Part shown: piece by piece, positions 1 to 16,217 of the stretch
Numbering within the stretch: position 1 is the first letter of the stretch
Layout of the letters: each line of letters opens with the position of its first letter
IMG/VR virus record: IMGVR_UViG_3300029057_000032
Location: 1-16,217 of that record
Length of the DNA: 16,217 bases
DNA from: a virus
Direction: 5' to 3' (one strand)
Notes under the pieces: generated by a model
The model's database searches: none
Told to the model about the DNA's origin: nothing
Seen by the model: only the letters and a program-made list of their open reading frames with translations
Program-made: the position numbers and the translations under genes

Positions 1-613
1 CTCTTAGTTTTACTCAAGTATCAACTGGCATCTCATTATCACAATAAGATAATCCTAAAATTCCAATATCTCTATCTTCTGATTTTAAATAGAATATTGC
101 TATCTTATTAACATCATTAGATTTAAATGTATAATACATTCTTCTATCTAATTCTTTTATATCTTCAACATCTCCAAATCATCCTCCTTTTTTAGATGTT
201 TCCAATATAAATAAATAATCAGATAATAGGAAGTCTTTATAGTGACTTGAAACTGGAGCAACTCCAGGTTCTGTTTCTTCACTATTCATAATTCCATAAG
301 TGAATGGTAATCCTCCTAATCCTGAACTGCCATTATGATACTCAATAACTCAAGCTCTATCTGCATTCGTATTTAAAAGATCTTTAAGGATATATCTAAC
401 ATTAAGATCCACTTCTTGTCGTATTACTTGATTAGTATTATGAACTGTTTCTATATAACTTACAACTTTATCATATATTATTCCTGGATTAGTACTTATA
501 ATTATTACATAAGAAATAAATATAAATCCAAATCCACCTTTAATTATTTTCCACAGTCCATATTTATCTACTCATTCTAATACCTTTCCAAACCAGTTTA
601 ATTTATTTTCCAT
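1..613 (-). CDS. Hypothetical N-terminally membrane-anchored protein. C-terminus runs off the window. Translatable only if TGA is sense (4 in-frame TGA codons).
   Basis: ATG at 611-613 overlaps the TAA of the upstream gene (TAATG, 611-615). Hand translation triplet by triplet gives 204 codons open to position 1 with no TAA or TAG. The only interruptions are TGA at 572-574, 350-352, 179-181 and 14-16. Product: MENKLNWFGKVLE[W]VDKYGLWKIIKGGFGFIFISYVIIISTNPG...ADRA[W]VIEYHNGSS...KKGG[W]FGDVED...PVDT[W]VKLR. It has one hydrophobic helix (GGFGFIFISYVIIIS). The standard-code track calls no ORF here. Confidence 0.7.
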
Positions 614-1039: not shown

Positions 1040-1723
1040 TTACTTACTCTTTTTATTGTTATCACTTGAAGGGAAATCATAAGCTCTTTGCAGAGGACCT
1101 TCACAAGAATTATATCTCCAACCTTTACCTCTAGCTCCACCTAACCAAATAGTACAAGATGAACTTGAATACATATTTGGATACATATCTTTAAGAGGTT
1201 TATAAGAATACAATTCAGGAAAATCATTATAATATGTAATTACCCAATTTTGTAATCTCGTTTTAAAGAAATCTGCTTTATCTCTATAATATTTCTTAAT
1301 AAGATTAACTTGGCTAATATCAGAAGTTAAATCTTTCTCATCATCAGTCCTCATAACCCCAAAATTACTCAGCTTAAATGAGATGGGTATAGTAATCTCA
1401 CTTAATACTTGATAAAGTAAATAAGGCTGAATATAGTAATCTAGCAATTCTTTATATCTATGATTTTCTGGGTCATCTATTGAAGTAGGATCATAAATAG
1501 GAGGTTCTATTGGATGAACTGGTTTATTTGGATCTTTTCAATCAATTACTAATTTCTGAATCTTTTCTAAGAGCTTAGTTCCAATTAATGACTGAAGCTC
1601 AATATCTTGTGCAAGTTTAATTGCTGACTGAAGATATTTACCAGAAACATTATTGTCTAGATTAGATTCTGATTTTATATAATCTTCAGATATTAATAGT
1701 ACATTTCTATAATTATTTTCCAT
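1040..1723 (-). CDS. Head-tail connector/adaptor-like protein, 227 aa. Fusion of track ORFs 1538..1723 and 1040..1447 across a sense TGA at 1538-1540.
   Basis: ORF 1538..1723 stops at TGA (plus-strand tca, 1538-1540). The next 31 codons ([W]KDPNKPVHPIEPPIYDPTSIDDPENHRYKELL) run in frame, with no TAA or TAG, into ORF 1040..1447. The M at the start of that ORF is really an internal TTG Leu. ATG 1721-1723 overlaps the portal TAA (TAATG). The N-terminus (EDYIKSESNLDNNVSGKYLQSAIKLAQDIELQSLIG) resembles the gp6-like connector motif from memory, and the gene lies directly after the portal gene. Confidence 0.6.
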
Positions 1724-2805
1724 TATTCAACTTGTTTAGTATCAGCTTCATTAAGGCTAAATGGTGAAATTGTGATTGAATTCTGCATTCCAAAGATCTT
1801 ATCAAATGAATCACAAATCTCTTTCTGAATAGGTCTAATCATAGTTCTATTATAAAGCTTGAATGAAGATTCAAATTCTTGCTCATTAAAACCAGTTGAA
1901 TCTGAGTTAATTCCAAATAAGTTAGGATTAGCTCTGAAGGCACAGAATATTTGATCTCTGGTTCTCTCAGATAATGATTGATATTTCTCATCAAAATCAT
2001 CAGAATCTAATCTTTCAATAGTAGTCTTATTTGCCTCATCTGCATTATATGAAATCAATATTCTGCCAGCATTCTGATAACCAGAGAACTTCTCATTAAT
2101 ATTCCTCTCAATCTCCTCTCTAATTTCATCTGTAGGTTCCCCATTATTAAAGTTAATAATAAGATTACCCATAAATCCATTATTGATGTTATTTAAATGG
2201 AATTCATTAATATTTTTCTCAGTTTCGCAAGATAAAATAGCAGCCCCATAAACAGGAATAGGATATACTCCTCTTGTTATATAACCTTTATTATAAAATA
2301 TACTAGCTGGATTTTCATCCCCAGCTCCAAATTTTGGATATTTTATAGCTTTTACAGACCAAGCTGTCCAATCAGTTGCATAATATAATACATCATTCTT
2401 TTCACTCGACCTTACATTCATAAAATCAATATGATAGATCTCTGCAACTCTTCCGAGCATATCTCTAATTACTTGGATAGCATAACCTCCAAATATCATC
2501 TTATCAATAGTGATTTTTCTCATTATATCAACTATTGTTTCACCTTTCTTGTTTACAACTACTTCAAATCCTGGAGCATTACATTTAACATCGTTACCAA
2601 CAATAAAGTCAGCAGAACCATTAATAATGGATTGGAGAGTGGCAACATTTAAATATAAATCCCATAGATATAATGGATATTTGTTATCTTCTCCCCACAT
2701 TACATAATCTTTTCCCCTCACTTTAGTTTCTGTAGGTAATACGATATTACTTGCAATAAATGGATCAATAGCACTTAACTGAACTTTTGTTTTATTTTCG
2801 CTCAT
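1723..2805 (-). CDS. Portal protein (Phage_portal / HK97-type family), 360 aa
   Basis: Intact ORF ending in TAA, with an in-frame TAA two codons upstream of the ATG. The sequence ...YQNAGRILISYN...DDFDEKYQSLSERTRDQIFCAFRANPNLFGI... matches the remembered portal core motif (r..I..af.vPp.llG). The N-terminal segment LYLNVATLQSIINGSADFIVGN is also portal-like. All 4 Trp codons are TGG. Confidence 0.7.
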   Translation of the reverse strand: MSENKTKVQLSAIDPFIASNIVLPTETKVRGKDYVMWGEDNKYPLYLWDLYLNVATLQSIINGSADFIVGNDVKCNAPGFEVVVNKKGETIVDIMRKITIDKMIFGGYAIQVIRDMLGRVAEIYHIDFMNVRSSEKNDVLYYATDWTAWSVKAIKYPKFGAGDENPASIFYNKGYITRGVYPIPVYGAAILSCETEKNINEFHLNNINNGFMGNLIINFNNGEPTDEIREEIERNINEKFSGYQNAGRILISYNADEANKTTIERLDSDDFDEKYQSLSERTRDQIFCAFRANPNLFGINSDSTGFNEQEFESSFKLYNRTMIRPIQKEICDSFDKIFGMQNSITISPFSLNEADTKQVE

Positions 2806-3339: not shown

Positions 3340-4305
3340 TTATGCTGACGCTAAAGTTCAGTTTTTAGATGTAGCTAATGATTTCTGTTCTTCAGTAAGT
3401 GCATTATAAACGTTAGTATAAAAAGTTAAAGTTTTGGTATCCTTTCCAGTTAAATCACTAACATTTGTAATAATATCGGTTACTGATTGACTATTTAGTG
3501 CTCTAAAATTTGTTAAATTCATACTTTTATCAGCTCCTTCAACACCCCCAAAATAAGTAACAGTAGTATTAGCAAATGCACATATTGAAGTTTTATTTAG
3601 ATCTTCTATTAATGTGCAATTATTTAATTTAATTTTTCCTACTGTTGTAACACCCTCATTATATGAATTAAAGTAATGATATAAAGCTAGTTGTCCATTA
3701 ATAACTTCAATTTCAGGAACATTACTGCTAACAGAATAAAAGAAAAATTGTAAAGATGATACACCAGTATCAACTTCATTTATCACTTTTAAAGTAGTTG
3801 GTAAATTAGAAGCATTAAAGAATGTTCTTATTGCATAATTTCTACTAGAGGGTAAGGGATTAATTAATTCTAAATTATTTAGTGTGCCTTGAAATCCAGA
3901 AAATGAGTAACTACCCCCAACATTAGTTCTTATATTATCAATATATATATTATATGTGTTTTGAAAGGCATATGAAGCATCATATACTTTAGACAGATCA
4001 ATATGACTTGATATATCTATTGTAGATATAAAATTAGCCCCATCAAATCAATAATTTATATTATCTGGAAGAGAATATTCTATATTATCATATTGCTCTT
4101 GTGTCATACTAGAATGTGCAAATGTTAATCCATAATCATTTAAATTAATCTTTCCTCCACCTCCAGAAATCTGTCCTATCTTATCTGCATAGCTTCTAAA
4201 GGTATCTGAATCTGATACAGCAACACCTTTAGCTACAATAGCATCTTTAATGGCACTCTTAGTACCTTCAAGATACGTTAATTTATCAGAAATTGTATTT
4301 GCCAT
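3340..4305 (-). CDS. Tail fibre / receptor-binding protein, paralog 1 (321 aa). It has a conserved fibre N-terminus, a BspA/DUF285-like LRR region and a shared C-terminal tail. Fusion of ORFs 4048..4305 and 3358..3786 with 2 sense TGA codons.
   Basis: TGA at 4048-4050 is followed by 87 in-frame codons without TAA or TAG, leading into ORF 3358..3786. The M at the start of that ORF is an internal GTG. TGA at 3358-3360 is followed by TLASA and then TAA at 3340-3342. The junctions read ...DNINY[W]FDGANF... and ...SLATSKN[W]TLASA*. The N-terminus MANTISDKLTYLEGTKSAIKDAIVAKGVAVSDSDTFRSYADKI is a motif I recall as typical of gut-phage tail fibres. Confidence 0.75.
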
Positions 4306-4306
4306 A

Positions 4307-4960
4307 TTAGATTACTTCACCATTAATTGTATCAAGAGTAGTTGAAATATTACCAATCTGAGCTTGAATAGCTGAAATTTCTCCATCTAACTCTGTCATC
4401 TTTGTATTATATGCATCTGTAGTTACATAGTTTGATAACTCACTTTTATCTGCTTTAAGTGCAACTTCATCTTTCGTAGCTAATCCAGATACATCAGGAA
4501 TCTTATTCTCTACAGCTGTAAGCTCTTCTTTAGTAGCAAAATCACTAGTATCAGGAATTTCTGCTTTAGTTGCATAGTTACTTAAATCTACAGATAATTG
4601 CAGACCTTCTCCATTTCTATGTAAAGATAGAGGTTGATTAGCTTGAAATACTTCCATTTTAGAAGTTTCTAATTCTTGAACCTCTCCTTTAAGATTAGTA
4701 ATCTCAGTATTAATTGGAACAAGTTTAGCATCAATAGATTGATCTACTAAAGGTGGAACTTGATCTTCAATACTTTCTGTTACTTTAGTATTAATTAACT
4801 CTTCTGCTTTCTCCTCAGAAATGTAATTACCTTTAGGTTGAAATCTTTCATCTGCTTCAATCTTAGTATAAGAACCAACAGGAAGTTGTCCAGGTTCAAT
4901 ACCACATTTCTTACTTACATAAAAAGTTTGTGTATTTTTAGTATTCTTAAGTATAATCAT
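4307..4960 (-). CDS. Tail fibre protein with coiled-coil region and short fibre repeats, 217 aa
   Basis: Intact ORF bounded by TAA. It has heptad-like stretches (ITNLKGEVQELETSK, MTELDGEISAIQAQIGNISTTLDTI) and repeated D-x-S-x-[FY]ATK[AE]E motifs. It shares the QLSVDLSxY motif with the 711-aa fibre. Confidence 0.65.
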   Translation of the reverse strand: MIILKNTKNTQTFYVSKKCGIEPGQLPVGSYTKIEADERFQPKGNYISEEKAEELINTKVTESIEDQVPPLVDQSIDAKLVPINTEITNLKGEVQELETSKMEVFQANQPLSLHRNGEGLQLSVDLSNYATKAEIPDTSDFATKEELTAVENKIPDVSGLATKDEVALKADKSELSNYVTTDAYNTKMTELDGEISAIQAQIGNISTTLDTINGEVI

Positions 4961-4962
4961 AA

Positions 4963-6078
4963 TTATCTAATTCGATTTATGCTCCAATTCTTTGAAGCGA
5001 TTAATGATTTCTGTTCACTTGTTAATTTATCATATGCAGTAGATTTGAATGATATACTTGTATAAGAGGCTACTGCTGTGCCAATAGATTCAGCTATAGT
5101 TTGTAATGAATCTGTAGATAAATTTGGAGATTGTGCAAAATAAAGAACTCCTCCTTTAGTTAAACTCTCTCCTAATCCATTTAAAGCTCCTACAGTTACT
5201 AATTCTGGACAATTTGCAGCAAAACTAGTACAATCTGTAACAAGATGGCAATCTATTTCTGGTGTAGCTGTTAATCTACTACAAGTACTAAACATATAGC
5301 TTATATCTGTAATTCCAGTAAAGGTAAAATTACTTGGAATAGTTGTTAGATATAATGCTCTATGAAACATATGATTACAATCTCCTTTAAAGGGAATATT
5401 AATCGTTATATTATCTATATTAGTAGCTCCATCAGCAGTTTCTGCAAATGCTCATTTTGGATCTACTAATACAAGATTTTGAAAATTATTCATTACAGAG
5501 AAATCATTATTATCTATTTTTACTCCAATAAATAAATAATTTGCACTTACTTCTTTAGTAGTTGTAGGTATTTTAACATTAGATAAAGTAGCACTATGTA
5601 TTGTTTGACCCCAAAATTGAAATTCACTAGACCATCTTCCATATGCTTCATTAAGATTAGTAATCTCCTGGTTATTTAGATCAAAATGTGATGTTTTAAA
5701 AAACCCTCCTTTTCTACTTAAATCTCCACTATTTAACTTTACATCTGCATATGTTTGAGCAGAACCTATAATACTACAAAGAGGTACACCATCTATATTA
5801 AGGGCTAATTCACTTAAATCAGCAGTAAAACTAATTACTGTAGAAGTAAGGCCAGATCCTCTACCCATTCAATCCCTTTGTATATCATTTATAGTTCCAT
5901 CATAACTGCTAAATACATAACTACAAGGATCAACTATTGTAGTGCCTTGAGGAACTGGATTAGCAACTGTAACTATTTGTGGATTACATATAGGCCAGAC
6001 TTTGGTACTGCCAACATAAATAGCAGTACCTTGTCTGTCACCTACATAAAATGTTTTTAAATCATCTCTAATATTCAT
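4963..6078 (-). CDS. Tail fibre / receptor-binding protein, paralog 2 (371 aa). Fusion of ORFs 5869..6078, 5452..5868 and 4963..5370 with 2 sense TGA codons.
   Basis: TGA at 5869-5871 abuts ATG 5866-5868 in frame (...DIQRD[W]MGRGSG...). TGA at 5452-5454 is followed by 27 in-frame codons (AFAETADGATNIDNITINIPFKGDCNH) leading into Met 5368-5370. The C-terminal part has BspA/DUF285-like LRR units (ITDISYMFSTCSRLT, VTDCTSFAANCPELV) and the shared tail LTSEQKSLIASKNWSINRIR. Confidence 0.75.
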
Positions 6079-8216: not shown

Positions 8217-8438
8217 TTATTTATTTTTATAAGATTCCTCTTGTTCTTTTAAATATCTTTCATTTGTTTCTGCATCAATAACCCTATAAATAGATATATC
8301 AAAGGTTAAAGGGCAATATAAAATAGTTGATGCACTATACTCTTTAATATCATCACCTTCTTTATATGAGGTGATAAAATATCCTTCATCAGAGTATAAC
8401 TTTATAAATATGCTAGTCTCAATATGTAAATGTTCCAT
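8217..8438 (-). CDS. Small hypothetical protein, 73 aa. A fibre assembly or chaperone role is suggested by position only.
   Basis: Intact ORF. ATG 8436-8438 overlaps the upstream TAA (TAATG). Its own TAA at 8217-8219 lies 1 nt before the next ATG. Confidence 0.5.
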   Translation of the reverse strand: MEHLHIETSIFIKLYSDEGYFITSYKEGDDIKEYSASTILYCPLTFDISIYRVIDAETNERYLKEQEESYKNK

Positions 8439-9625
8439 TATGCTAATATCCAGTTTTTATTAGTAGCTATTGCTTTCTGTTCATCTGATAATTTTGCCAG
8501 ATTGGTAGCTCCTAATGTTAAAGTTTTGCTATTCTCCCCTGTTAAATCAACTAATGCATTAATAACAGACATTAAAGAATCAGTAGTAAGATTGGTACTT
8601 GCTGATAGATATAATCCTGCTCTAAGCTGACCGTTTACTGTAAGATTAGTAATTCCACTACATTTTGAAAATATAGGATTTATTGAACTTTCTTGAGATG
8701 TGTATGATGGAATGTTTAATGTTACATCTGTTAATCTAATGCAATCTCCAAACATATTAGTAGTAGTTACTAATTTAGGAGCGTCTAAATTAAGTGTTTT
8801 CAGGCTATTATATCCAGATAAGGTACCTCTGCTAAACATATTAGACCCATCTGTTAATTCAGGCATTGGAATAGTGAATGATGTTAAATCAGCACATTCT
8901 GTAAACATATATCTGCCATCTTCTAATTTAGGCAATTGCATAGTGAACTCCTTAATTTTTGATCTTTGACATTTATATCTTCCATCAACTAAATTTTCTC
9001 AACCTACAACATTTGCAGGAACAGATGTTCCCGTAAACCTATATAAATTAACTACAGCTTGTGTAATATCATATGTATTCATTGGATTCGTAACATTAAC
9101 AGTTACATCAATAAACTCCATATAATCATATCCATCTGCAGGATGAATCATTGTAGTTCCATTCTCTGTAATAGTAACTTCTCTATGCTCCTCAACTGGA
9201 ATCTCTACATCTACTTCAATACTTGATAAACCTTGATAGCCAGCATCAGGTTTAACTTCAGTCATTGATAGGTTTTTATCTATTGTTATATGTTTCTCTT
9301 GTAAAGTAGGAGTTGGTACTGGAACATTTATTTGTGCAGAAACCTTCTCCATAACATCATAATCTGGATCAGGTAAAATATCTATTAATCCATTAGATGT
9401 AATTGTAATCTCTTTAGTAGCTTGTACTGTAGGAACAACAACATCAACAGATACATTTACTTTCGACATACCATCATAACCCTCATCTGGAGTTACAACG
9501 AACTCAGCATTCTGAGTATATTCTACAGACTTCTCCTGTAATTTACATTCTTGAGCAGCTAAAGCTTCAATATCTCTTGAAGTTGTATTCTTTGCTACTT
9601 CTGGTGTTGTATATTTAATAGCCAT
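8438..9625 (-). CDS. Tail fibre / receptor-binding protein, paralog 3 (395 aa). N-terminal tandem repeats plus a C-terminal BspA/DUF285-like LRR region. Fusion of ORFs 8999..9625 and 8438..8941 across TGA 8999-9001.
   Basis: TGA at 8999-9001 is followed by 19 in-frame codons (ENLVDGRYKCQRSKIKEFT) leading into Met 8939-8941. The bridging peptide LVDGRYKCQRSKIKEF is itself an LRR unit resembling the next one, LEDGRYMFTECADLTSF. This argues for one continuous protein. It ends ...LSDEQKAIATNKNWILA*. Confidence 0.75.
9086..9541 (-). repeat. Four tandem intragenic repeats of about 35-40 aa, consensus (I)T(I)xxNG...xPdxGYDgmSxVxVxVxVP
   Basis: The four copies align by eye: EKSVEYTQNAEFVVTPDEGYDGMSKVNVSVDVVVP, KEITITSNGLIDILPDPDYDVMEKVSAQINVPVP, EKHITIDKNLSMTEVKPDAGYQGLSSIEVDVEIPV, REVTITENGTTMIHPADGYDYMEFIDVTVNV. 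Confidence 0.7.
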
Positions 9626-9659: not shown

Positions 9660-9698
9660 ATAAACAAAATAAGGGGCAAGTAAATTAATACTCGCCCC
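9660..9698 (-). terminator. Rho-independent terminator after the tail-tube gene
   Basis: Minus-strand RNA: GGGGCGAGUA-UUAAUU-UACUUGCCCC, a 10-bp stem with one G-U pair (9673-9682 pairs with 9689-9698). It is followed by UUAUUUUGUUUAU. It starts about 10 nt after the TAA at 9709-9711. Confidence 0.75.
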
Positions 9699-9708
9699 TC
9701 TTCTGTTG

Positions 9709-10233
9709 TTAAGCACCTACAACACTTTGAATAGCTTCAGCACTCAACTCATAAGGATATGATTCAGAGTCAGTAGCTAAAGTCAGCGTATAAGCGTTCT
9801 GATCACCTTTTGCAGTACCAGTAACACCCGTACCAGCGGAAGCGCTTACATAGTCATCTTTTCCTAAGAACCAGTATTTGCCATTAGAATCTTCTACAAC
9901 AACTACAAGTTGTCCAATAGAAAGAGCAGCAATCTCGATTCTTTTCTTAGTCTCCATCTTTGTAAATACAAGAGCAAGCTCATTACTTACATAGTTGGTT
10001 CCTGCAGTTTCGTCAACGTTCAATGTTGAGGTTAGAGAACCAGTACCTTTGCGGAATTGGTAGTTATACCATTTAGCTGAAGACTCAAGAGTAATAGCTG
10101 AGATTTGATTAGTCTCATCATCTACAGTTACACTCTTAACATTATCGTACTGAGTAATCCATACCTGTTTGATACCACCAAGCGAAGATTCGCAATCCAG
10201 GGTAATACCAGCGATAGTTATTAAACAAGCCAT
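9709..10233 (-). CDS. Major tail (tube)-like protein, 174 aa
   Basis: Intact ORF directly after the capsid gene and followed by a strong terminator. It is beta-rich and its size fits. The segments LVVVVEDSNGKYWFLGKDDY...GTGVTGTAKGDQNAYTLTLA resemble siphovirus tube proteins as I remember them. GC is higher than in the flanking genes. Confidence 0.5.
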   Translation of the reverse strand: MACLITIAGITLDCESSLGGIKQVWITQYDNVKSVTVDDETNQISAITLESSAKWYNYQFRKGTGSLTSTLNVDETAGTNYVSNELALVFTKMETKKRIEIAALSIGQLVVVVEDSNGKYWFLGKDDYVSASAGTGVTGTAKGDQNAYTLTLATDSESYPYELSAEAIQSVVGA

Positions 10234-10271
10234 ATAATTTCAATCTTATTTAAAGTTAAACTCTATTGAAA

Positions 10272-11177
10272 TTAGGCTTTGGCACCAAGAACTACCTCAT
10301 CAGGGAATGCAACCTGTACGCCAGCGTTAAATTCAATAGCTAATCTAAATTCGCGGAAATCTTGTGAATACCACAATTCAAACTTCTCTTCATCGTTCAT
10401 CATATCGCAACCATAGAAGAAGTTCTTATCTAACTGACCAGCAACAATCTTATCAGTTCCATTAAGACCATTAACAGCGATTACTTTAACCTGCGAACCA
10501 GGAAGCATAATCTCACCATTAAGATTCTCACCACTATAGTGGTAGTAGTTCTTAGCAACTAACTCCTGGATAAATTTACGGAAAGTATCACTGCCAACTA
10601 AGATAGAAGCACCATCCAGAACCTTCTCAGGAATAGCGTTATAAACAGCCATAATGTCATCATAAGCAGATGCTCCAGTAATTACTACATCAACAACATC
10701 ATCAGCAGCACCAAGGATCTTTAACAGACCATCAAAATACTTCAGGTTAATTGTTTCAGAAGCAGTATCACCCTGCCAAATAGCAGTCTCAATAGCAGCC
10801 TTAACATTCTCAACTACTGCATTTACGAAATCCTCTTCAAAAGGAAGCGTCTTCTGACCAGCAGCTACTCGTACTTGATACTGAGTCCAGTATTTAAGCA
10901 TCTCTTTATCACAATATGCCATATTGATCTTAATATTACCAGTAGCCAGAATTCTCTGAGAAAGAGTCTGAGTTCCAGCTTCATCCCAACCACAAGCTAG
11001 GCCATCGCCAAACTGAATAGCAGTTGATAACAGGTTAAGAGCAGCACTAGTTTTGATGTCAGTTTGAAGATTGAACAACGAAGCACTCTTAGCCTTTAAT
11101 ACAGCCTCTTTAATAAGAGGAAGACGTCTCTGCTCTACATAAGCAGTAAGACTAGTCATTACAGGACTATTTGCCAT
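10272..11177 (-). CDS. Major capsid protein (HK97 fold), 301 aa
   Basis: Intact ORF immediately downstream of the protease and scaffold genes. Capsid-like features are ...AIWQGD...YFDGLLKIL... and the C-terminal FELWYSQDFREFRLAIEFNAGVQVAFPDEVV. GC is about 45% in the stretch I counted. All 4 Trp codons are TGG. Confidence 0.75.
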   Translation of the reverse strand: MANSPVMTSLTAYVEQRRLPLIKEAVLKAKSASLFNLQTDIKTSAALNLLSTAIQFGDGLACGWDEAGTQTLSQRILATGNIKINMAYCDKEMLKYWTQYQVRVAAGQKTLPFEEDFVNAVVENVKAAIETAIWQGDTASETINLKYFDGLLKILGAADDVVDVVITGASAYDDIMAVYNAIPEKVLDGASILVGSDTFRKFIQELVAKNYYHYSGENLNGEIMLPGSQVKVIAVNGLNGTDKIVAGQLDKNFFYGCDMMNDEEKFELWYSQDFREFRLAIEFNAGVQVAFPDEVVLGAKA

Positions 11178-11199
11178 AATTTTATAAATAATTTAATAA

Positions 11200-11802
11200 T
11201 TAACCAATAAAGTTTTTAAGCTTTTTATCAATAACAGGATTACCAGTCATTATTGAAGCTTTGCCTTCTATCTGTTCCTCAGCTGAAAATGCAGCACTCA
11301 TTTTGCTCATCTTTTCAACCGTCTTTTCTGTAGCTTCAGATTTACCCTCTAATTCAGCTACTTTCTTAACAAGCTTATCAACAATGTCATAAAGCTCATT
11401 AATTTCGCGATGAATTGCATCAATTGCATCAGTTACAGTTTCTTTGTCACCATCAGTAGCTACTTCAGGATCAACTGGCTCTTCAGCAGTTTCTACCTTG
11501 CGTTTTCCACAAGCAGCATCAACTTCTGCTTTAGCTGCTTCTTCTGGATCAACCTCAGCTTTAGGATCAGTTACAGACTCTACTTTACCGTCTTTAACAA
11601 CAATCGTCTTTCCATCCTCAGTTACATACTCACCATCCTCAGCAGGTTTGTATTCTCCGTTCTCATCCTGAACATATACATCCATACCAGCGCGTAAGTC
11701 TTCATCTGAATCCCAAGTAAGTACTGCCTTATCAGTTTTAATATCACTGAACTTTGCAAGCATTTTAGCCAATTCAAGCTTGATTCTTGTGAATTTGCTC
11801 AT
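11200..11802 (-). CDS. Scaffolding protein, 200 aa
   Basis: Acidic, low-complexity and coiled-coil-prone sequence (DPEEAAKAEVDAA..., INELYDIVDKLVKKVAELEGKSEATEKTVEKM). It lies between the protease and capsid genes. Confidence 0.65.
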   Translation of the reverse strand: MSKFTRIKLELAKMLAKFSDIKTDKAVLTWDSDEDLRAGMDVYVQDENGEYKPAEDGEYVTEDGKTIVVKDGKVESVTDPKAEVDPEEAAKAEVDAACGKRKVETAEEPVDPEVATDGDKETVTDAIDAIHREINELYDIVDKLVKKVAELEGKSEATEKTVEKMSKMSAAFSAEEQIEGKASIMTGNPVIDKKLKNFIG

Positions 11803-11815
11803 TTAATTAATAATT

Positions 11816-12409
11816 TTAATGTTTAACTCTTTTTATCTTCTTAATCATATTAAGGATCTCTTTTATTTCGTCATATTCATCAGACTTTCTCTCTAAAGTA
11901 AATAAACCTTCAATTGAGAACCCTTTAAACTTACCAGCTTTAATTGCATCCCAAATAACTTGATTATCTACTTTATAAGTGGCAAATAAAGAACCATCAG
12001 GAACATCCTGGAATTCAACTGGAGATATTCCTCTATTAATATCCTTTACATAGATTTCTTGTAGAGTAATTCCATTTAAATCAGAATCTTCTAAATGTTC
12101 AATATTTACATCTGTAGTTCTCTTATCATACAGCATCTTCTCTGCCATTTTACGAAGAGTTTCCTTATCATACTGTATGTAGTATTCTCCGAGTTTCTCA
12201 TCTCGTCTGAAAATTGGAGTATCACTTAACATTAAGCAAGATGTTACTAAATGCTTATCTTCATCCATCGAGAACTTCTGAGAATTACTAAAAGCAACCC
12301 AGTTAACTTGTGTAGCTGGTTTGCTTGTTAAAGCAACATATTCTATTCCATCACAATCATCAGTAATCACTGCCTGAAATAATGGAAGATCATTATAAGT
12401 AATTTCCAT
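11816..12409 (-). CDS. XkdF-like putative prohead serine protease (Peptidase_S78_2-like), 197 aa
   Basis: The segments ...DVNIEHLED..., ...DGSLFATYKVDNQVIWDAIKAGKFKGFSIEG... match the remembered XkdF-family pattern (vn.eH ... GsW...kV.d.e.W..vk.G..kGfSieG). The gene lies upstream of the scaffold and capsid genes. Confidence 0.6.
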   Translation of the reverse strand: MEITYNDLPLFQAVITDDCDGIEYVALTSKPATQVNWVAFSNSQKFSMDEDKHLVTSCLMLSDTPIFRRDEKLGEYYIQYDKETLRKMAEKMLYDKRTTDVNIEHLEDSDLNGITLQEIYVKDINRGISPVEFQDVPDGSLFATYKVDNQVIWDAIKAGKFKGFSIEGLFTLERKSDEYDEIKEILNMIKKIKRVKH

Positions 12410-12458
12410 TTTTATTAATATATAGCACTTTATAAATTTGTAATATTTTTAGAATATC

Positions 12459-12514
12459 TAATGTAACCTTTTTACTCATATTTTGTAGTTAATAAGAATA
12501 AAAAAGTTACATTA
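12459..12514 (-). promoter_or_regulatory. AT-rich inverted repeat between the tape-measure and protease genes. Either a weak terminator or a protein-binding site.
   Basis: The arm taatgtaaccttttt (12459-12473) pairs with aaaaagttacatta (12501-12514). This gives 14 bp with one bulged C and a 27-nt loop. It begins 8 nt after the TAG stop at 12522-12524. Confidence 0.4.
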
Positions 12515-12521
12515 AACATTT

Positions 12522-14837
12522 CTAGAATGAAGCATTAGATTCAGTAACTGCTACCTTAGTTTGAGCTGAAGTAATATCAGATTCAACAACATAACACTTA
12601 ACTGGATTATTAAGTTCATCAGTCTCTTTATTTCCAAGTAAATTTCGAGTATACTCAACAGGAGCTTGTGTAAGTGCAGATGGAGCGGATACTGAAGATG
12701 ATACATCACTACCAGATATTTCTTCATTTTCAATATTTTTAATTTGAAGTAATCCCATAGCAATAGCTGCAGCAGCAGCAATACCACCTAATACAGGACC
12801 TACTACTGGAATTCCTGCCATAGAGTTATAAGCATTCATTGCTGCAGAAGCGGTATTAAATACGGTAGATATTTTAGCTATAGACTTATAATTTTCCATA
12901 GCTTTTTCTCTCTCCTTTAATGACTTCTTGGAATTATTTGCCTCAAATTTATAGTTTTGAGCTACAGCATCACCTAAACTTCCTAATGCAGCAAAACTTC
13001 CTTGAACAGCAGCTACAATGTCTTTAATTTCATCTTTTTTAGCAGCCTTTATTTTTTCTCCATTAGCTACAATAGCATTTGCAGCAGCAGTATCATTTGC
13101 TTCTCTTTCTGCATTTAATCTTGCATACTCATTATTATACTCTTCTTGAGTTATTAAGCCATTATCAAACGATTCTTTTAAAGTGGTTTGTAATTCTCCA
13201 ATTCTTTTATTATCTCTTTCGTAGAATCCTAACTGTATTTCAAGTAGCTCATTAGATTGTGTTATTCTATCGTTCTTTTCACTCTTTATATCTCCCGCAG
13301 TCTTGTATTCGTTTCCAAGACCTGCATTATGTGTATATGTCTTATTATATTTAGTATCTAACTCAGATTGCCTTTGATCAAAAAATCTATTCTCTCGTTC
13401 TCTAAGTTGTTCTAAAGAATTAATTCTATTATTAATTTCTTTACGATACCGCTCGTTCTGATTGTCTAGATACTCTTTATCATAAGCATCATTTATTTGC
13501 TTTAATCTCTTTCTATATTCCTCAACTGTTATAAGCTCTTTATCTTTAGCTGTTTTAAGAGCATCTAATTGATTTTGATATTTGGTATTTAATTCATCTA
13601 ACTCTCTAGCTTCATCATCTAATAGCAGTTTTCTATTCTCTTCATAGAAATCATTGATAACCTTCAGTAAATCAGCGTTACGTTTCTTTGCATCTTCAAT
13701 ATTCTTTAGATAGTTAGCCTTAGCCTCTTCTCTGGCTTTACGCTCTGCAGATATTTCCATCAATTTAACCTTTTCATAAGTTTCTGAAGTTTTCTGCATT
13801 AAACTATTTCTCTTCTCTATATATGCATTGTAGATACCAGAAGCTTCGTCGTAAGCAGCTCTTTGATCATCATTTAACTTACTTAAAAAGAAATCAACTT
13901 CATTAGAACTAGTTTTTAATCCTCATTGAATCGACTTAGAATAATCTTCCCAAGTGTCATATCCAGATTTCTTAAACTCTTTTCTGAAGTATTTATTACT
14001 CTTAAGTATATCTGTAAATGAATCATTATAAGCTTTAGCTACACTTCCAAATTCCTGGGATATTTTAGCATTTAATTTACCTAATTCTTGAGCATAATCC
14101 TTTCAGATTTGTATTTCATTCTTTTTACCTTCAGCTAAATCTCTTTCTCTCTGTCTTTCTAATCAAGCAATTTCTGTATTAGCTTGTGCATAGCTAGTTC
14201 CTCATTGGTCTGTTATGTCTTTTAACCCTGAAATACTAATCTTTAAATCACCAATTCCAGATGCTGCTTTGATTGCAAAGTCTACTAACATTCCTAATGC
14301 TACTACTAATGCTCCAATACCTGTTGATATAATAGCAGTTCGTAGCACTCCCATCGCAACAGATAAACCTCCAGTAGCAGTAGTAGCACCAGCCATCGCA
14401 ACAGATAAAGCCTTAAATGATTTTACTCCATTAAGAACACCTTCACCTAAACCCTTTAATCCTCCAATTCCTTGAACTATAGCAATAGCTGCTTGAAGCT
14501 TAACCATAGTTTTCTGGAGATTCTCTGTATCTCTTCCAAATAAAGTAAATGCAGCACTTACAGCCGAAACTCCACCTGCAAGACCGCCAGCTACTTGGTT
14601 AATACTATCAAAAGCTTTAACTGCATTTACAGTCTTACCTTGCATAGATTCAGTAGCTACATTAAGCTTGTTTTGTGCACTTACAAGCTCTTCAAGTTTT
14701 TTGGAATAGTCAGAACTACCAATTTCCAATGATTCAAGTTCGTCAGTCAAGCCAGCTACTTGTTCTCGTAGCTGCTTGATTGACTTTGTACTTTTAGTAG
14801 TATCTATATCTATTACCTTTTTAATTTCTTCAGCCAT
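12522..14837 (-). CDS. Tape-measure protein, 771 aa. Fusion of ORFs 14202..14837 and 12522..13799 plus the ORF-less stretch 13800-14201. It carries 4 sense TGA codons.
   Basis: Hand translation of 13800-14201 is in frame with both flanking ORFs and has no TAA or TAG: ...ITDQ[W]GTSYAQANTEIA[W]LERQRERDLAEGKKNEIQI[W]KDYAQELGKLNAKISQEFGSVAKAYNDSFTDILKSNKYFRKEFKKSGYDTWEDYSKSIQ[W]GLKTSSNEVDFFLSKLNDDQRAAYDEASGIYNAYIEKRNSLMQKTSE.... The TGA codons are at 14202-14204, 14163-14165, 14103-14105 and 13923-13925. The protein has long coiled coils and Gly/Ala-rich hydrophobic segments (GIGALVVALGMLVDFAI, GIPVVGPVLGGIAAAAAIAMGLL), which are typical of tape-measure proteins. It is the only gene ending in TAG. 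Confidence 0.75.
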
Positions 14838-14839
14838 AT

Positions 14840-16217
14840 TTAAATAGTAATATTTTTAATAGTATCTGCATTTAAAGTAAGTTCTTCCTCATATTTAACA
14901 ACACTTGATAATTGTACTTCAAAATGGAATGGAACTCCTTTTTGAACATATAAATAGTACTCTCCAGTTGTTGCATCACAATATGTACTATCTACAAAGT
15001 TGTCATTATCTACATAGATATAAGGTTGTACATCTAATACTTTACCATCTGCATCTGTTACTTTTCCAGAAAGCTTTACTGATTTAGATGGATCAGGAGT
15101 TTGATAAAAATATACTTGTCCTAATCTTTCATAAATATCAGATTGAGCTACTAAACTTAGATAGAAGTTATCTTCAATATATTTAGGATTTTCATTATAT
15201 TCAATAGTCATAGTACTAATTCCAGGTAATCCTTCCATTGGTGAAATATTTGTAATCTTCAAATTATTATACCAACTAACTTTCCAAGGAACATTAGATT
15301 CTATAGTTACAACTTTACTTCCAGCTTCATACCCTACAGTAACTTCTGGGTCACTTACTTCTATGTATTTACCTAAAGTAGATACTCCTCCTATATAATT
15401 ATTGATGTCTTGAACTCTTATAAATTCACATCTAGTAGTTGCATCAGAATTAACATCATAAGCATCTATCTTATTTAATACCCAATAACTATCTTCAAAA
15501 TAGTAAAACTGTCTTAACATATCAAAGTTTACTTGTAAATCATTTAATTTTACAAAACAAGTAACTTTCTTAGTATTAACATCAAATTGATCAGTATAGA
15601 ACTCTTTCCAGAATTGAGAATAAATAACACTTTGTTCTGGATATGCAATTTTATCTATATAAATTTCTCTTGGTAATCCAAAATCCCAACTAGATATTAC
15701 ATAATTACTTGATATATTATATCTTATGAATTGTGGTAAAGAGGTTCTTTTAATTGCAATCTTAGCACCAGCTTCATTAGTTTCTCTAGTAGTATATAAA
15801 TAGCAAGGTTCAGAATCATTTAATACAGACATTTCTGTAACATCATCAGTAATCCAATATGTAATAGGATTGCCATCAATATCTTTCATCTCTACATTGC
15901 CATTATAAAATAGTAATGTCGATTTAATTTCTTCTAAACTTTGCTCATCATTATCTAATGAATAGAAACAAGTCTTTGCAAATATATCATTACCAGGAAC
16001 ATCTCACCACTCTGTAGTCTTAGATGAATCAATGAAATTTACTCCATAAAGATCCTGATCGTTTGTTTTTCTTTCAGTAGACGTAGAATGGAATAATTGA
16101 TAAGTAATATTATCATTTAGGAAGCAGGGAACTGGCGAACTTGAACTATTAAAATAGTTTCTATAATACTTATCTACATCTCTTGCAGATATTACATTTT
16201 CATATAAGTTATCTGAG
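14840..16217 (-). CDS. Tail / baseplate-associated protein with a BACON-like domain and a C-terminal CarboxypepD_reg-like beta-sandwich. N-terminus runs off the window. 1 sense TGA codon.
   Basis: The frame of ORF 14840..15889 stays open upstream to 16217. Every triplet was checked and there is no TAA or TAG. The single TGA is at 16004-16006 (...SSKTTEW[W]DVPGNDIF...). The BACON-like motif VTIESNVPWKVSWYNNLKITNISPMEGLPGISTMTIEYNENP falls within about 15104-15364. The CarboxypepD_reg-like segment SGKVTDADGKVLDVQPYIYV...TGEYYLYVQKGVPFHFEV falls within about 14885-15079. Confidence 0.7.

What the first reader, a model, noticed from the sequence alone, without database searches (positions are those of the whole stretch)
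9709..12409. The recoded codon is absent from capsid-core genes and confined to tail, receptor-binding and membrane-protein genes
Portal, protease, scaffold, capsid and tube genes together contain 14 Trp codons, all TGG. The seven TGA-containing genes have about 18 TGG and 15 TGA.

Individual genes:
- tape-measure protein: 1 TGG, 4 TGA
- membrane protein: 2 TGG, 4 TGA
- RBP paralog 1: 0 TGG, 2 TGA

The window-wide TGA fraction is about 0.31. A naive binomial then gives roughly a 0.5% chance that 14 of 14 are TGG. This rests on hand counts and assumes independence.

Two explanations are possible:
- The most highly expressed genes avoid a codon that depends on a suppressor tRNA. Recoding would then gate or delay production of tail and lysis-type proteins.
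- The pattern is only a side effect of the higher GC of the capsid genes.
Basis: partly seen in the sequence, partly recalled or inferred. Interest (0 to 1): 0.65.

Follow-up and report, generated by a model that had tools for sequence, protein, structure and literature searches.

The report
TGA-free capsid genes in recoded phage
In a human-gut phage that reads the stop codon TGA as tryptophan, the capsid and tail-tube genes made in the largest amounts avoid TGA, most likely through ordinary codon optimisation of highly expressed genes rather than a timing switch.

Summary
The hand counts are exact. Portal, protease, scaffold, capsid and tube genes hold 14 TGG and 0 TGA. Seven other genes hold 18 TGG and 15 TGA.

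In the window alone the signal is nominal: Fisher p=0.002, about 0.03-0.07 after scaling for each gene's A/G bias, and 0.11 without the post-hoc grouping.

Forty-two related TGA=Trp genomes (~30 kb, human gut) make it solid:
- TGA-poor: capsid 164 TGG/2 TGA, tube 122/2, scaffold 27/0.
- TGA-rich: tape measure 155/131, receptor-binding family 174/151, terminase 55/48, homing endonucleases 186/281.
- Portal (149/26) and protease (67/11) orthologs do carry TGA.

GC3 does not explain the pattern. TGA share is uncorrelated with GC3 across gene families. The capsid/tube bias is codon-specific (TTC, CAC, GGT, CCT favoured; ATA, AGG avoided). TGA share follows that optimisation axis in the other 24 families (rho -0.56, p=0.004).

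Window 9709-12409 looks like one transcription unit, with a promoter-like gap upstream and a conserved terminator downstream.

Gating is unsupported. No tRNA gene exists in any complete genome, and TGA occurs on both strands and in terminase, endolysin and early-block genes.

Verdict: translational selection against a poorly decoded Trp codon. The host and the way TGA is decoded remain unknown.

The parts
12410..12521 (-). AT-rich 112-nt intergenic gap upstream of the protease gene. It holds promoter-like hexamers (ATTACA-16-TATATT at 12444-12417). Most relatives have TTGACA...TATA-type elements here.
   Evidence: These are consensus matches conserved in the clade alignment. Promoter function is inferred, not shown.
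11816..12409 (-). Prohead protease (XkdF-like, Peptidase_S78_2), 197 aa, 2 TGG/0 TGA.
   Evidence: Pfam PF14550 E=6e-9; PHROG head maturation protease; counts. Orthologs pooled: 67 TGG/11 TGA.
11200..11802 (-). Scaffold-like acidic coiled-coil protein, 200 aa, 1 TGG/0 TGA.
   Evidence: Assigned from its position between protease and capsid and from its composition. It shares PHROG 24921 with the protease. Orthologs pooled: 27 TGG/0 TGA.
10272..11177 (-). Major capsid protein, 301 aa, 4 TGG/0 TGA. It has the highest GC3 (0.30) and the strongest codon optimisation in the window.
   Evidence: PHROG major head / virion structural hits. A source names a 96%-identical homolog 'Major capsid protein' (P0062). 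Orthologs pooled: 164 TGG/2 TGA.
9709..10233 (-). Tail-tube-like protein, 174 aa, 3 TGG/0 TGA.
   Evidence: AlphaFold model with pLDDT 69. The top Foldseek PDB hits are the SPP1, lambda, 7-7-1 and Sf11 tail tubes (E about 2e-3 to 7e-3, TM 0.31-0.37). No sequence-level family was found. Orthologs pooled: 122 TGG/2 TGA.
9671..9700 (-). Intrinsic-terminator-like hairpin (12-bp stem, then a T run) directly after the tube gene's stop codon.
   Evidence: A stable hairpin (MFE below -12) is present at the same place in all 40 code-4 relatives examined; the code-11/TGA-less relatives displayed also have one, with different stem sequences.
12522..14837 (-). Tape measure protein, 771 aa, 1 TGG/4 TGA. 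TGA codons at 14202-14204, 14163-14165, 14103-14105 and 13923-13925.
   Evidence: PHROG tape measure E=3e-14; counts. All four TGA sit at non-conserved positions, mostly Ile/Leu in relatives.
14840..16216 (-). C-terminal part of a tail/baseplate protein of about 1150 aa that runs off the window. 7 TGG/1 TGA (16004-16006).
   Evidence: identical to the C-terminus of the 1149-aa protein of L002.
8438..9625 (-). Receptor-binding-type protein, paralog with a conserved C-terminal ...KNW motif. 1 TGG/1 TGA (8999-9001).
4963..6078 (-). Receptor-binding paralog. 4 TGG/2 TGA (5869-5871, 5452-5454).
3340..4305 (-). Receptor-binding paralog. 0 TGG/2 TGA (4048-4050, 3358-3360). The second TGA is the conserved C-terminal Trp, which is TGG in the other two paralogs and in code-11 relatives.
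   Evidence: In that column, code-4 relatives have 41 TGA/38 TGG and the code-11 relative has TGG.
1723..2805 (-). Portal protein, 360 aa, 4 TGG/0 TGA in the window.
   Evidence: PHROG portal E=2e-30; PF04860. Orthologs pooled: 149 TGG/26 TGA; column aa37 is TGA in 16/40 genomes.
1040..1723 (-). DUF6712 protein, 227 aa. 3 TGG/1 TGA (1538-1540).
2..613 (-). Membrane protein with an N-terminal transmembrane helix. Its 3' end runs off the window. 2 TGG/4 TGA (572-574, 350-352, 179-181, 14-16).
   Evidence: The conserved Trp columns are 50-100% TGA in relatives and TGG in the code-11 relative.

Best explanation
The window is about half of a ~30-kb tailed phage from the human gut that reads TGA as tryptophan. 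Genome-wide, TGA is a disfavoured Trp codon in this lineage. Its share (about 0.37) is far below the A-ending share of Lys/Glu/Gln codons (about 0.7).

The stretch 9709-12409 (protease, scaffold, major capsid protein, tail-tube-like protein) looks like a single transcription unit. A promoter-like gap precedes it and a conserved intrinsic terminator ends it. The proteins it encodes are needed in the largest numbers.

The capsid and tube genes carry a codon-specific optimisation signature. TGG is part of the optimal set and TGA is purged, just as ATA, CCA, GGA and AGG are. Tail, receptor-binding, terminase, membrane and homing-endonuclease genes are needed in few copies. They are weakly optimised, so AT mutation pressure lets TGA accumulate there, and many of the new Trp positions in fast-evolving genes are TGA.

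Shown: the counts, the clade-wide reproducibility, TGA=Trp, the absence of phage tRNA genes, the codon-specific bias and its correlation with TGA share, and the conserved terminator.

Inferred: that the head unit is the most highly expressed; that TGA is decoded more slowly or less reliably than TGG, for example because only a tRNA-Trp(UCA) reads it while both Trp tRNAs read TGG; and that the decoding is supplied by the host.
For: - Exact counts.
- TGA=Trp: conserved Trp columns are TGG/TGA polymorphic within the clade and TGG in code-11 relatives.
- Clade-wide TGG/TGA: capsid 164/2, tube 122/2, scaffold 27/0, against tape measure 155/131, tail proteins 342/155 and 336/241, receptor-binding family 174/151, TerL 55/48, membrane protein 95/116, homing endonucleases 186/281.
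- Lack of time is not the cause. In the capsid gene 37 of 47 conserved Lys/Glu/Gln columns are A/G polymorphic (68 changes). Its four Trp columns show 0, 2, 0 and 0 TGA among about 41 genomes, and the TGA variants arose independently and stay rare.
- Column tests: capsid+tube 7/7 columns at or below 5% TGA against 16/61 elsewhere (p=2.5e-4). After subtracting own-gene A/G bias, p=0.026.
- Genome-wide, Trp columns have about 6-fold lower A:G odds than Lys/Glu/Gln columns (Wilcoxon p=2e-7).
- Codon table, capsid+tube against the rest: TTC 0.62 v 0.19, CAC 0.70 v 0.11, ATC 0.30 v 0.07, ATA 0.05 v 0.37, GGT 0.76 v 0.32, CCT 0.92 v 0.47, AGG 0.02 v 0.12, TGA 0.01 v 0.42. This is not a plain GC shift.
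- A codon-optimisation score built without Trp codons predicts TGA share across the 24 other families (Spearman -0.56, p=0.004).
- The capsid gene uses fewer A-ending Lys/Glu/Gln codons than the non-core genes in every relative with a capsid gene except one short 4.5-kb contig (0.57 v 0.59), including standard-code and 55%-GC relatives. The optimisation therefore predates recoding.
- Homing endonuclease genes inserted inside the head unit keep genome-typical usage (GC3 0.17, A-share 0.79) and carry TGA (17 of 61). The bias is therefore gene-specific, not regional.
- Promoter-like gap and positionally conserved terminator.
- Head and tail proteins of many phages are biased towards host-preferred codons (Lucks et al. 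2008, PMC2266997).
Against: - Expression levels were not measured, and the host and its tRNA pool are unknown. 'Optimal' is defined only internally, from capsid+tube against the rest.
- Some TGA-poor families are not obviously abundant: the replication-type protein on the opposite strand (134/1), a holin-like 53-aa protein (70/0) and a 79-aa protein (30/0). The small ones rest on 1-2 Trp columns each.
- The tape measure gene has an optimisation score like the portal's but 46% TGA.
- A percentile-based, gene-normalised test found no difference between core and non-core (p=0.31), although it suffers a floor effect.
- The residual class effect after composition control is modest (p=0.026).
- Pooled counts are phylogenetically non-independent.
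Confidence: 0.6

Rival explanations
1. Compositional by-product. The capsid genes simply have higher GC3, through regional mutation bias or recent acquisition from a higher-GC phage, so G-ending TGG is expected there without any selection on TGA.
For: GC3 is highest in capsid (0.30), tube (0.28), scaffold (0.24), protease (0.22) and portal (0.21), against 0.10-0.18 elsewhere. Scaling by each gene's A/G bias weakens the window-only signal to P=0.03-0.07.
Against: - Across families TGA share is not correlated with GC3 (rho -0.31, p=0.15) or with Lys/Glu/Gln A-share (rho 0.16).
- The bias is codon-specific, with T-ending GGT/CCT/GCT favoured and G-ending AGG avoided.
- Capsid Trp columns are at 1% A while Lys/Glu/Gln columns of the same gene are at 33% A.
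- Homing endonuclease genes embedded in the head unit keep AT-rich usage.
- The nearest non-recoded capsid is only 67-69% identical, so recent import is not supported.
Confidence: 0.07
2. Temporal gating, the model proposed for recoded phages of standard-code hosts. TGA cannot be read until a phage-supplied suppressor appears, so TGA-free genes are made first and TGA-bearing tail and lysis genes are delayed.
For: The replication-type gene of the opposite-strand block is essentially TGA-free (134 TGG/1 TGA), as early genes are in the published model (Borges et al., bioRxiv 10.1101/2021.08.26.457843). Only 35% of code-4 phages in that survey had a detectable suppressor tRNA, so lacking one is not disqualifying.
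Against: - No tRNA gene was found in any complete genome by ARAGORN or Rfam.
- Small genes in the same opposite-strand block are TGA-rich (59-aa family 2/31; 164-aa family 20/30).
- TerL (55/48) and TerS carry TGA.
- The TGA-free head unit sits between TGA-rich tail genes in one co-directional late region. Virion assembly gives no reason to make the capsid before the portal but the tape measure later.
- The holin-like gene is TGA-free, the opposite of the lysis-gene enrichment reported for other clades.
Confidence: 0.07
3. Dosage throttle. TGA is positively kept in low-copy genes because inefficient decoding limits their output and so sets virion stoichiometry. TGA-free genes are simply the unthrottled ones.
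For: TGA-rich genes are those needed in few copies: tape measure, receptor-binding proteins, terminase, endonucleases. Some conserved Trp columns are fixed at TGA: membrane protein 38/38, a tail protein 32/32, endolysin 31/31. TGA share here (0.37) is well below that of Mollicute phages (0.77-0.95), which fits costly decoding.
Against: Fixation at A is common at Lys/Glu/Gln columns too (15-34% of columns), so no positive selection is needed. Most Trp columns in tail genes are polymorphic, with TGG in the majority. No strong sequence context distinguishes TGA from TGG.
Confidence: 0.12
4. Historical inertia. Conserved proteins retain ancestral TGG from the pre-recoding ancestor, and TGA marks only Trp positions that arose after recoding in fast-evolving proteins.
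For: All four tape measure TGA codons and four of the five receptor-binding-paralog TGA codons in the window lie at non-conserved positions where relatives have Ile/Leu/Phe and the like. The tape measure family has no conserved Trp column at all.
Against: - Synonymous sites are saturated in the same genes, so TGG would have drifted if it were neutral.
- TGA share is unrelated to protein conservation across families (rho -0.10).
- Conserved Trp columns in the membrane protein, the receptor-binding C-terminus and portal aa37 are 40-100% TGA although code-11 relatives have TGG there.
Confidence: 0.1
5. Chance plus post-hoc grouping in a sample of 48 codons.
For: A grouping-free permutation in the window gives p=0.11.
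Against: The same genes are TGA-poor in 42 related genomes despite saturated synonymous sites.
Confidence: 0.03

Closest known systems
Stop-codon-recoded gut phages (TGA->Trp 'code 4' and TAG->Gln 'code 15'; Borges et al., bioRxiv 10.1101/2021.08.26.457843; clades Garnet, Amethyst, Topaz, Agate, crAss-like, Lak)
   Same: - Low-GC gut phages of about 22-34 kb (Garnet, Amethyst, Topaz).
- In-frame TGA aligning with Trp.
- Close relatives that do not use TGA as sense.
- TGA stops already lost in non-recoded relatives.
- TGA use uneven among gene families. That paper already tested TGA against TGG family by family.
- Many members have no detectable suppressor tRNA.
   Different: - In that work, structural and lysis genes are the recoded set and replication or integrase genes the unrecoded set, read as a timing switch.
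- Here the most abundant structural genes are the unrecoded ones. TGA also sits in the terminase, endonucleases and early-block genes, and the holin-like gene is TGA-free.
- No code-change gene (tRNA, RF, TrpRS) was seen.
- Whether this clade belongs to one of the named clades was not tested.
Phages of natively code-4 Mollicutes (Mycoplasma phages MAV1 and P1, Spiroplasma phage 4)
   Same: TGA=Trp with no phage tRNA. Similar GC (27-32%).
   Different: TGA dominates there: MAV1 50 of 65 Trp codons, P1 39 of 41, and the SpV4 major capsid gene 9 of 10. Here TGA is 0.25-0.45 of Trp codons per genome and about 0.01 in the capsid gene. This phage also encodes a Peptidase_M15_3 endolysin, which implies a host with a cell wall.
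Translational selection for host-preferred codons in phage head and tail genes (Lucks et al. 2008, PMC2266997)
   Same: The head and tube genes differ from the rest of the genome by a codon-specific bias that is separable from GC3.
   Different: The codon concerned is a reassigned stop codon. Only the head unit is strongly optimised here, not the tail and fibre genes. Host-preferred codons could not be checked because the host is unknown.
TGA-avoiding phages of code-25 CPR bacteria (Liu et al. 2023, PMC10746230) and recently recoded code-4 gut Eggerthellaceae (Parks et al., bioRxiv 10.64898/2025.12.01.691617)
   Same: - Relatives such as L038 use TGA neither as stop nor as sense, like the code-agnostic phages described there.
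- Parks et al. describe code-4 gut Eggerthellaceae (Actinomycetota) with 31-40% GC that keep both tRNA-Trp(CCA) and tRNA-Trp(UCA). Their cell wall is my inference from the taxonomy; the paper does not discuss it. A host of that kind would make TGG the better-served codon.
   Different: Those bacteria were found in non-human mammals. No link to this phage clade was tested or found.

Membership tests
Code-4 (TGA->Trp) recoded phage | In-frame TGA in conserved genes aligns with Trp (TGG) in homologs. | tested here: met
   The receptor-binding C-terminal Trp column has 41 TGA/38 TGG in the clade and TGG in code-11 relatives. Membrane protein aa14 and aa145, and portal aa37, behave likewise. Gly (code 25) is excluded.
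Code-4 (TGA->Trp) recoded phage | Coding density rises markedly when TGA is read as sense. | tested here: met
   Density is 0.91-0.97 under code 4 against 0.57-0.81 under code 11 in most relatives (0.86-0.88 in two partial contigs); for the window, 0.98 against 0.84.
Code-4 (TGA->Trp) recoded phage | Phage-encoded suppressor tRNA(UCA) or other code-change genes (RF1, TrpRS). | tested here: not met
   No tRNA by ARAGORN in the window or in L001-L130, which cover many complete genomes. No tRNA by Rfam at E<=1 in the window plus a complete genome. No RF or TrpRS among the annotated genes.
Code-4 (TGA->Trp) recoded phage | Recoded codon restricted to late (structural/lysis) genes and absent from early genes. 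| tested here: not met
   TGA occurs in TerL, TerS, homing endonucleases and small opposite-strand genes. It is nearly absent from capsid, tube, scaffold and the holin-like gene.
Code-4 (TGA->Trp) recoded phage | Host uses the standard code. | not testable with these tools
   Host not identified. The GTDB scan found only distant relatives that are not TGA-recoded (at most 61% capsid identity), sitting in MAG bins. The long contigs of 148 and 193 kb are wrap-around assemblies, not host DNA.
Translational-selection codon bias of highly expressed genes | Codon-specific shift, not merely a GC shift, in the putatively most expressed genes. | tested here: met
Translational-selection codon bias of highly expressed genes | The focal codon (TGA against TGG) follows the same bias axis in other genes. 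| tested here: met
   Spearman -0.56, p=0.004 over 24 families, with Trp excluded from the score and capsid/tube excluded from the test.
Translational-selection codon bias of highly expressed genes | Favoured codons match the host's tRNA pool or its highly expressed genes. | not testable with these tools
   Host unknown.
Translational-selection codon bias of highly expressed genes | The biased genes are in fact the most highly expressed. | not testable with these tools
   Indirect evidence only: the identity of the proteins, a promoter-like gap and a conserved terminator bracketing the unit.
Siphovirus tail tube protein (for 9709-10233) | Tail-tube fold. | tested here: inconclusive
   The model has pLDDT 69. 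The best PDB matches are the SPP1, lambda, 7-7-1 and Sf11 tail tubes, but at E about 2e-3 to 7e-3 and TM 0.31-0.37. No Pfam, PHROG-function or PDB sequence match.

The most novel reading that the evidence does not exclude
The clade infects a walled, standard-code gut bacterium, carries no suppressor tRNA, and makes TGA readable by an unknown phage function or by near-cognate reading by host tRNA-Trp. TGA would then be a slow, leaky Trp codon that acts as a built-in translational throttle setting virion stoichiometry. It would be absent from proteins needed in hundreds of copies and frequent in those needed in a few.

Alternatively, the clade marks an unrecognised walled code-4 bacterium in the human gut.
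Probability: 0.12. Interest if true: 0.8.

Novelty: new member of a known kind. Interest (0 to 1): 0.35.

Why it matters
The result shows that a reassigned stop codon can behave as an ordinary non-optimal codon. It is tolerated where expression is low and purged where expression is high. This gives a simpler reading of uneven recoding in phage genomes than a timing switch. It also warns against reading every TGA-free gene as 'early'.

The clade is a good test system. It has dozens of complete, tRNA-less, TGA=Trp genomes from the human gut, an endolysin that implies a walled host, and relatives that use no TGA at all. How TGA is decoded in the roughly two-thirds of code-4 phages without a detectable suppressor tRNA is still an open question, and this clade could address it.

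Tried and rejected
- GenBank phage collection, tblastn with the capsid protein: no match.
- GTDB genome scan with a capsid alignment: only distant relatives (at most 61% capsid identity), none clearly TGA-recoded, in MAG bins of Clostridia, Lachnospiraceae, Bacteroidales and others. This gave no host for the code-4 clade.
- The 148-kb IMG/VR contig and the 193-kb ENA scaffold looked like possible prophage-in-host contigs. The contig end repeats an internal stretch 29.8 kb away at 100% identity, so they are wrap-around or concatenated assemblies of phage variants.
- A percentile test of Trp columns against same-gene Lys/Glu/Gln columns showed no difference between core and non-core (p=0.31). 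I judged it underpowered because of a floor effect (fixed-G columns are common) and replaced it with threshold and logit-difference tests.
- Sequence context of TGA against TGG (positions -3 to +6) and position within genes showed only small differences and no readthrough-type signature.
- PDB sequence search and Pfam scan for the tube-like protein found nothing.
- Rfam search of the window plus a complete relative gave no credible RNA family.
- Recent import of the head module from a standard-code phage was rejected, because the nearest non-recoded capsid is 67-69% identical.

Full report
**What is in the window.** All genes lie on the minus strand. With TGA as a stop the region breaks into 33 ORFs. 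With TGA as sense it becomes 17 tightly packed genes.

Annotation gives this order, read from window position 16217 down to 1:
- the C-terminal part of a large tail protein
- tape measure protein (12522-14837)
- XkdF-type prohead protease (11816-12409)
- scaffold-like protein (11200-11802)
- major capsid protein (10272-11177)
- a 174-aa protein whose predicted fold best matches the SPP1 and lambda tail tubes, though only marginally (9709-10233)
- three paralogous receptor-binding-type proteins interspersed with a 73-aa protein, a 711-aa fibre and a 217-aa fibre-like protein, followed by a 130-aa protein
- portal (1723-2805)
- a DUF6712 protein and a 155-aa protein
- a membrane protein that runs off the window.

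The window matches ENA human-gut metagenome contigs (the human-gut label comes from a related contig).

**Checking the observation.** The five 'core' genes hold 14 TGG and 0 TGA. Seven genes hold 18 TGG and 15 TGA. The window-wide TGA fraction is 15/48 = 0.3125.

Tests on the window alone:
- Fisher's test gives p=0.002.
- Scaling each gene's TGA odds by its own A:G odds at Lys/Glu/Gln codons predicts 2.4-3.0 TGA in the core genes. P(0)=0.03-0.07; likelihood-ratio p=0.014.
- A permutation that ignores the post-hoc functional grouping gives p=0.11.

The window alone is therefore suggestive only.

**Relatives.** The capsid, a tail protein and the portal recovered 130 loci from IMG/VR. I merged them into 62 contigs, 43 of them fully covered.
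- Coding density separates a TGA=Trp clade from relatives that do not read TGA as sense. The clade comprises all contigs with at least 88% capsid identity plus a few at 56-69%.
- Three of those relatives use TGA neither as stop nor as sense.
- TGA=Trp is shown directly. Conserved Trp columns are TGG/TGA polymorphic inside the clade and TGG in the standard-code relatives.
- Complete genomes are about 26-31 kb. On average 55% of genes carry TGA and the TGA share of Trp codons is 0.37.

**Does the pattern hold?** Pooled TGG/TGA over 42 genomes:

| Group | Gene family | TGG/TGA |
|---|---|---|
| TGA-poor | capsid | 164/2 |
| TGA-poor | tube | 122/2 |
| TGA-poor | scaffold | 27/0 |
| Intermediate | protease | 67/11 |
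| Intermediate | portal | 149/26 |
| TGA-rich | tape measure | 155/131 |
| TGA-rich | two large tail proteins | 342/155 and 336/241 |
| TGA-rich | receptor-binding family | 174/151 |
| TGA-rich | fibre | 1/23 |
| TGA-rich | TerL | 55/48 |
| TGA-rich | endolysin | 53/40 |
| TGA-rich | membrane protein | 95/116 |
| TGA-rich | homing endonucleases | 186/281 |

Other TGA-poor families are a replication-type protein on the opposite strand (134/1), a holin-like 53-aa protein (70/0) and a 79-aa protein (30/0).

So 'capsid-core against tail, receptor-binding and membrane' is only approximately right. Capsid, tube and scaffold are robustly TGA-free. Portal and protease orthologs carry TGA in a substantial minority. 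TGA is not confined to tail or membrane genes.

**Is it lack of time or ancestry?** No.
- In the capsid gene, 37 of 47 conserved Lys/Glu/Gln columns are A/G polymorphic, with 68 parsimony changes. Its four Trp columns show 0, 2, 0 and 0 TGA in about 41 genomes.
- TGA variants do arise in capsid and tube (four independent origins) but remain singletons.
- All 7 capsid+tube Trp columns are at or below 5% TGA, against 16 of 61 elsewhere (p=2.5e-4). For the five core genes the figures are 9/12 against 14/56 (p=0.0018).
- After subtracting each gene's own Lys/Glu/Gln logit, p=0.026.
- Trp columns everywhere sit well below the A-share of Lys/Glu/Gln columns (p=2e-7). TGA is therefore generally disfavoured.
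- Ancestry does explain part of the tail-gene excess. All four tape measure TGA codons and four of the five receptor-binding-paralog TGA codons in the window lie at non-conserved positions.

**Is it GC3?** Not as such.
- Across families TGA share is uncorrelated with GC3 (rho -0.31, ns), with Lys/Glu/Gln A-share (rho 0.16, ns) and with protein conservation.
- Capsid+tube differ from the rest by a codon-specific signature. TTC, CAC, AAC, ATC, GGT, CCT, GCT, CGT/CGC and CTT go up. ATA, CCA, GGA, AGG and TTA go down.
- A score built from these weights without Trp predicts TGA share in the 24 other families (rho -0.56, p=0.004).
- The capsid gene uses fewer A-ending Lys/Glu/Gln codons than the non-core genes in every relative but one short 4.5-kb contig, including standard-code and 55%-GC relatives.
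- Homing endonuclease genes inserted inside the head unit keep AT-rich usage and carry TGA. The bias is therefore gene-specific.

**Transcription unit.** A strong terminator-like hairpin follows the tube gene's stop codon (9700-9671). A stable hairpin sits at the same place in all 40 code-4 relatives, and the non-recoded relatives shown also have one, with different stems. The 112-nt gap upstream of the protease gene carries promoter-like elements conserved in the clade. The coordinates given in the finding therefore coincide with one probable high-output unit. This is inference from sequence.

**Gating and the decoding mechanism.**
- No tRNA gene was found in the window, in any related locus or in complete genomes. 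No release factor or TrpRS was seen.
- TGA occurs on both strands and in every functional class. The head unit is embedded among TGA-rich late genes. A timing switch is therefore not supported.
- The phage has a Peptidase_M15_3 endolysin, so the host has a cell wall.
- Phages of wall-less code-4 Mollicutes use TGA for 77-95% of Trp codons, including 9 of 10 in the SpV4 capsid gene. This clade is unlike them.
- The most economical reading is a host that decodes TGA natively but less well than TGG, for example one that keeps both tRNA-Trp(CCA) and tRNA-Trp(UCA). The recently described low-GC code-4 gut Eggerthellaceae are of that kind (bioRxiv 10.64898/2025.12.01.691617).
- The host was not identified. 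A standard-code host with an unknown decoding mechanism cannot be excluded. I put native decoding at roughly 0.65.

**Relation to what is known.**
- Uneven use of recoded stop codons among phage gene families, and family-wise TGA-against-TGG tests, are published (Borges et al.). That paper stresses recoding of structural and lysis genes as a timing device.
- Codon optimisation of phage head and tail genes is also established (Lucks et al. 2008).
- This case joins the two: a reassigned stop codon treated as a non-optimal codon and purged from the highest-output genes.
- It is a further example of known phenomena with a somewhat different distribution. The open mechanistic question lies in the tRNA-less decoding, not in the codon distribution itself.

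Noticed in passing
L038 (IMG/VR 3300029905_000019), L041, L044: The closest non-recoded relatives (capsid 57-67% identical, GC 0.28-0.34) use TGA neither as a stop codon nor in frame. Coding density is the same, or within 0.003, under codes 4 and 11. They look like a TGA-less intermediate or a code-agnostic state.
   Followed up: partly
Relatives, e.g. L010 9348-9986, L148 9212-9979, contig 3300045988_046576 (several sites). None in the window.: Many HNH and GIY-YIG/NUMOD homing endonuclease genes (142 copies in 41 contigs) are inserted at variable sites, including between scaffold, capsid and tube genes. They are the largest TGA-rich family (186 TGG/281 TGA), which suggests they circulate in a TGA=Trp gene pool.
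   Followed up: partly
Window and all of L001-L130: Not a single tRNA gene was found in dozens of complete TGA=Trp genomes of about 30 kb. Yet they encode an M15 peptidoglycan peptidase and a holin-like protein. This implies either an unrecognised walled code-4 host in the human gut or an unknown decoding mechanism.
   Followed up: partly
Window 9671-9700 (minus strand); same position in relatives: The terminator hairpin after the tube gene is conserved in position from the code-4 clade to relatives with only about 33% capsid identity. The stem sequences differ (for example GAGGGGCGAGTA/TACTTGCCCCTT against AAGAGCGGGTAA/TTACTCGCTCTT).
   Followed up: partly
Window 8438-9625, 4963-6078, 3340-4305 (and 4307-4960): Three paralogous receptor-binding-type proteins share a conserved C-terminal ...EQK...KNW... 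end. The family is highly variable in copy number and sequence among relatives (115 members in 39 contigs), which looks like cassette exchange.
   Followed up: no
Window 6080-8215: The 711-aa fibre protein contains no tryptophan at all. In relatives, the few Trp codons of this family are almost all TGA (23 of 24).
   Followed up: no
IMG/VR 3300045988_175865 (148,631 bp; L019, L079, L122) and ENA scaffold LIJU14-1 scaffold_39 (193,455 bp; L148): These very long 'viral' contigs are wrap-around or concatenated assemblies of related phage variants. The contig end repeats an internal stretch 29,846 bp upstream at 100% identity, while neighbouring fibre genes differ.
   Followed up: yes
Whole genome map (contig 3300045988_046576): The gene order is unusual. 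It runs TerS, TerL, tail proteins, tape measure, then protease-scaffold-capsid-tube, then fibres, then portal about 20 kb from the terminase. A single 575-aa replication-type protein is the main recognisable early gene.
   Followed up: no
Window 12410-12521: A 9-bp inverted repeat (TAATGTAAC ... GTTACATTA, 38 nt apart) lies in the gap between the tape measure and protease genes. Most relatives instead have a near-consensus TTGACA element there.
   Followed up: no
Window 11200-12409: Protease and scaffold each match different halves of one PHROG family (phrog_24921, 349 positions). In some phages they may therefore be a single fused protease-scaffold gene.
   Followed up: no
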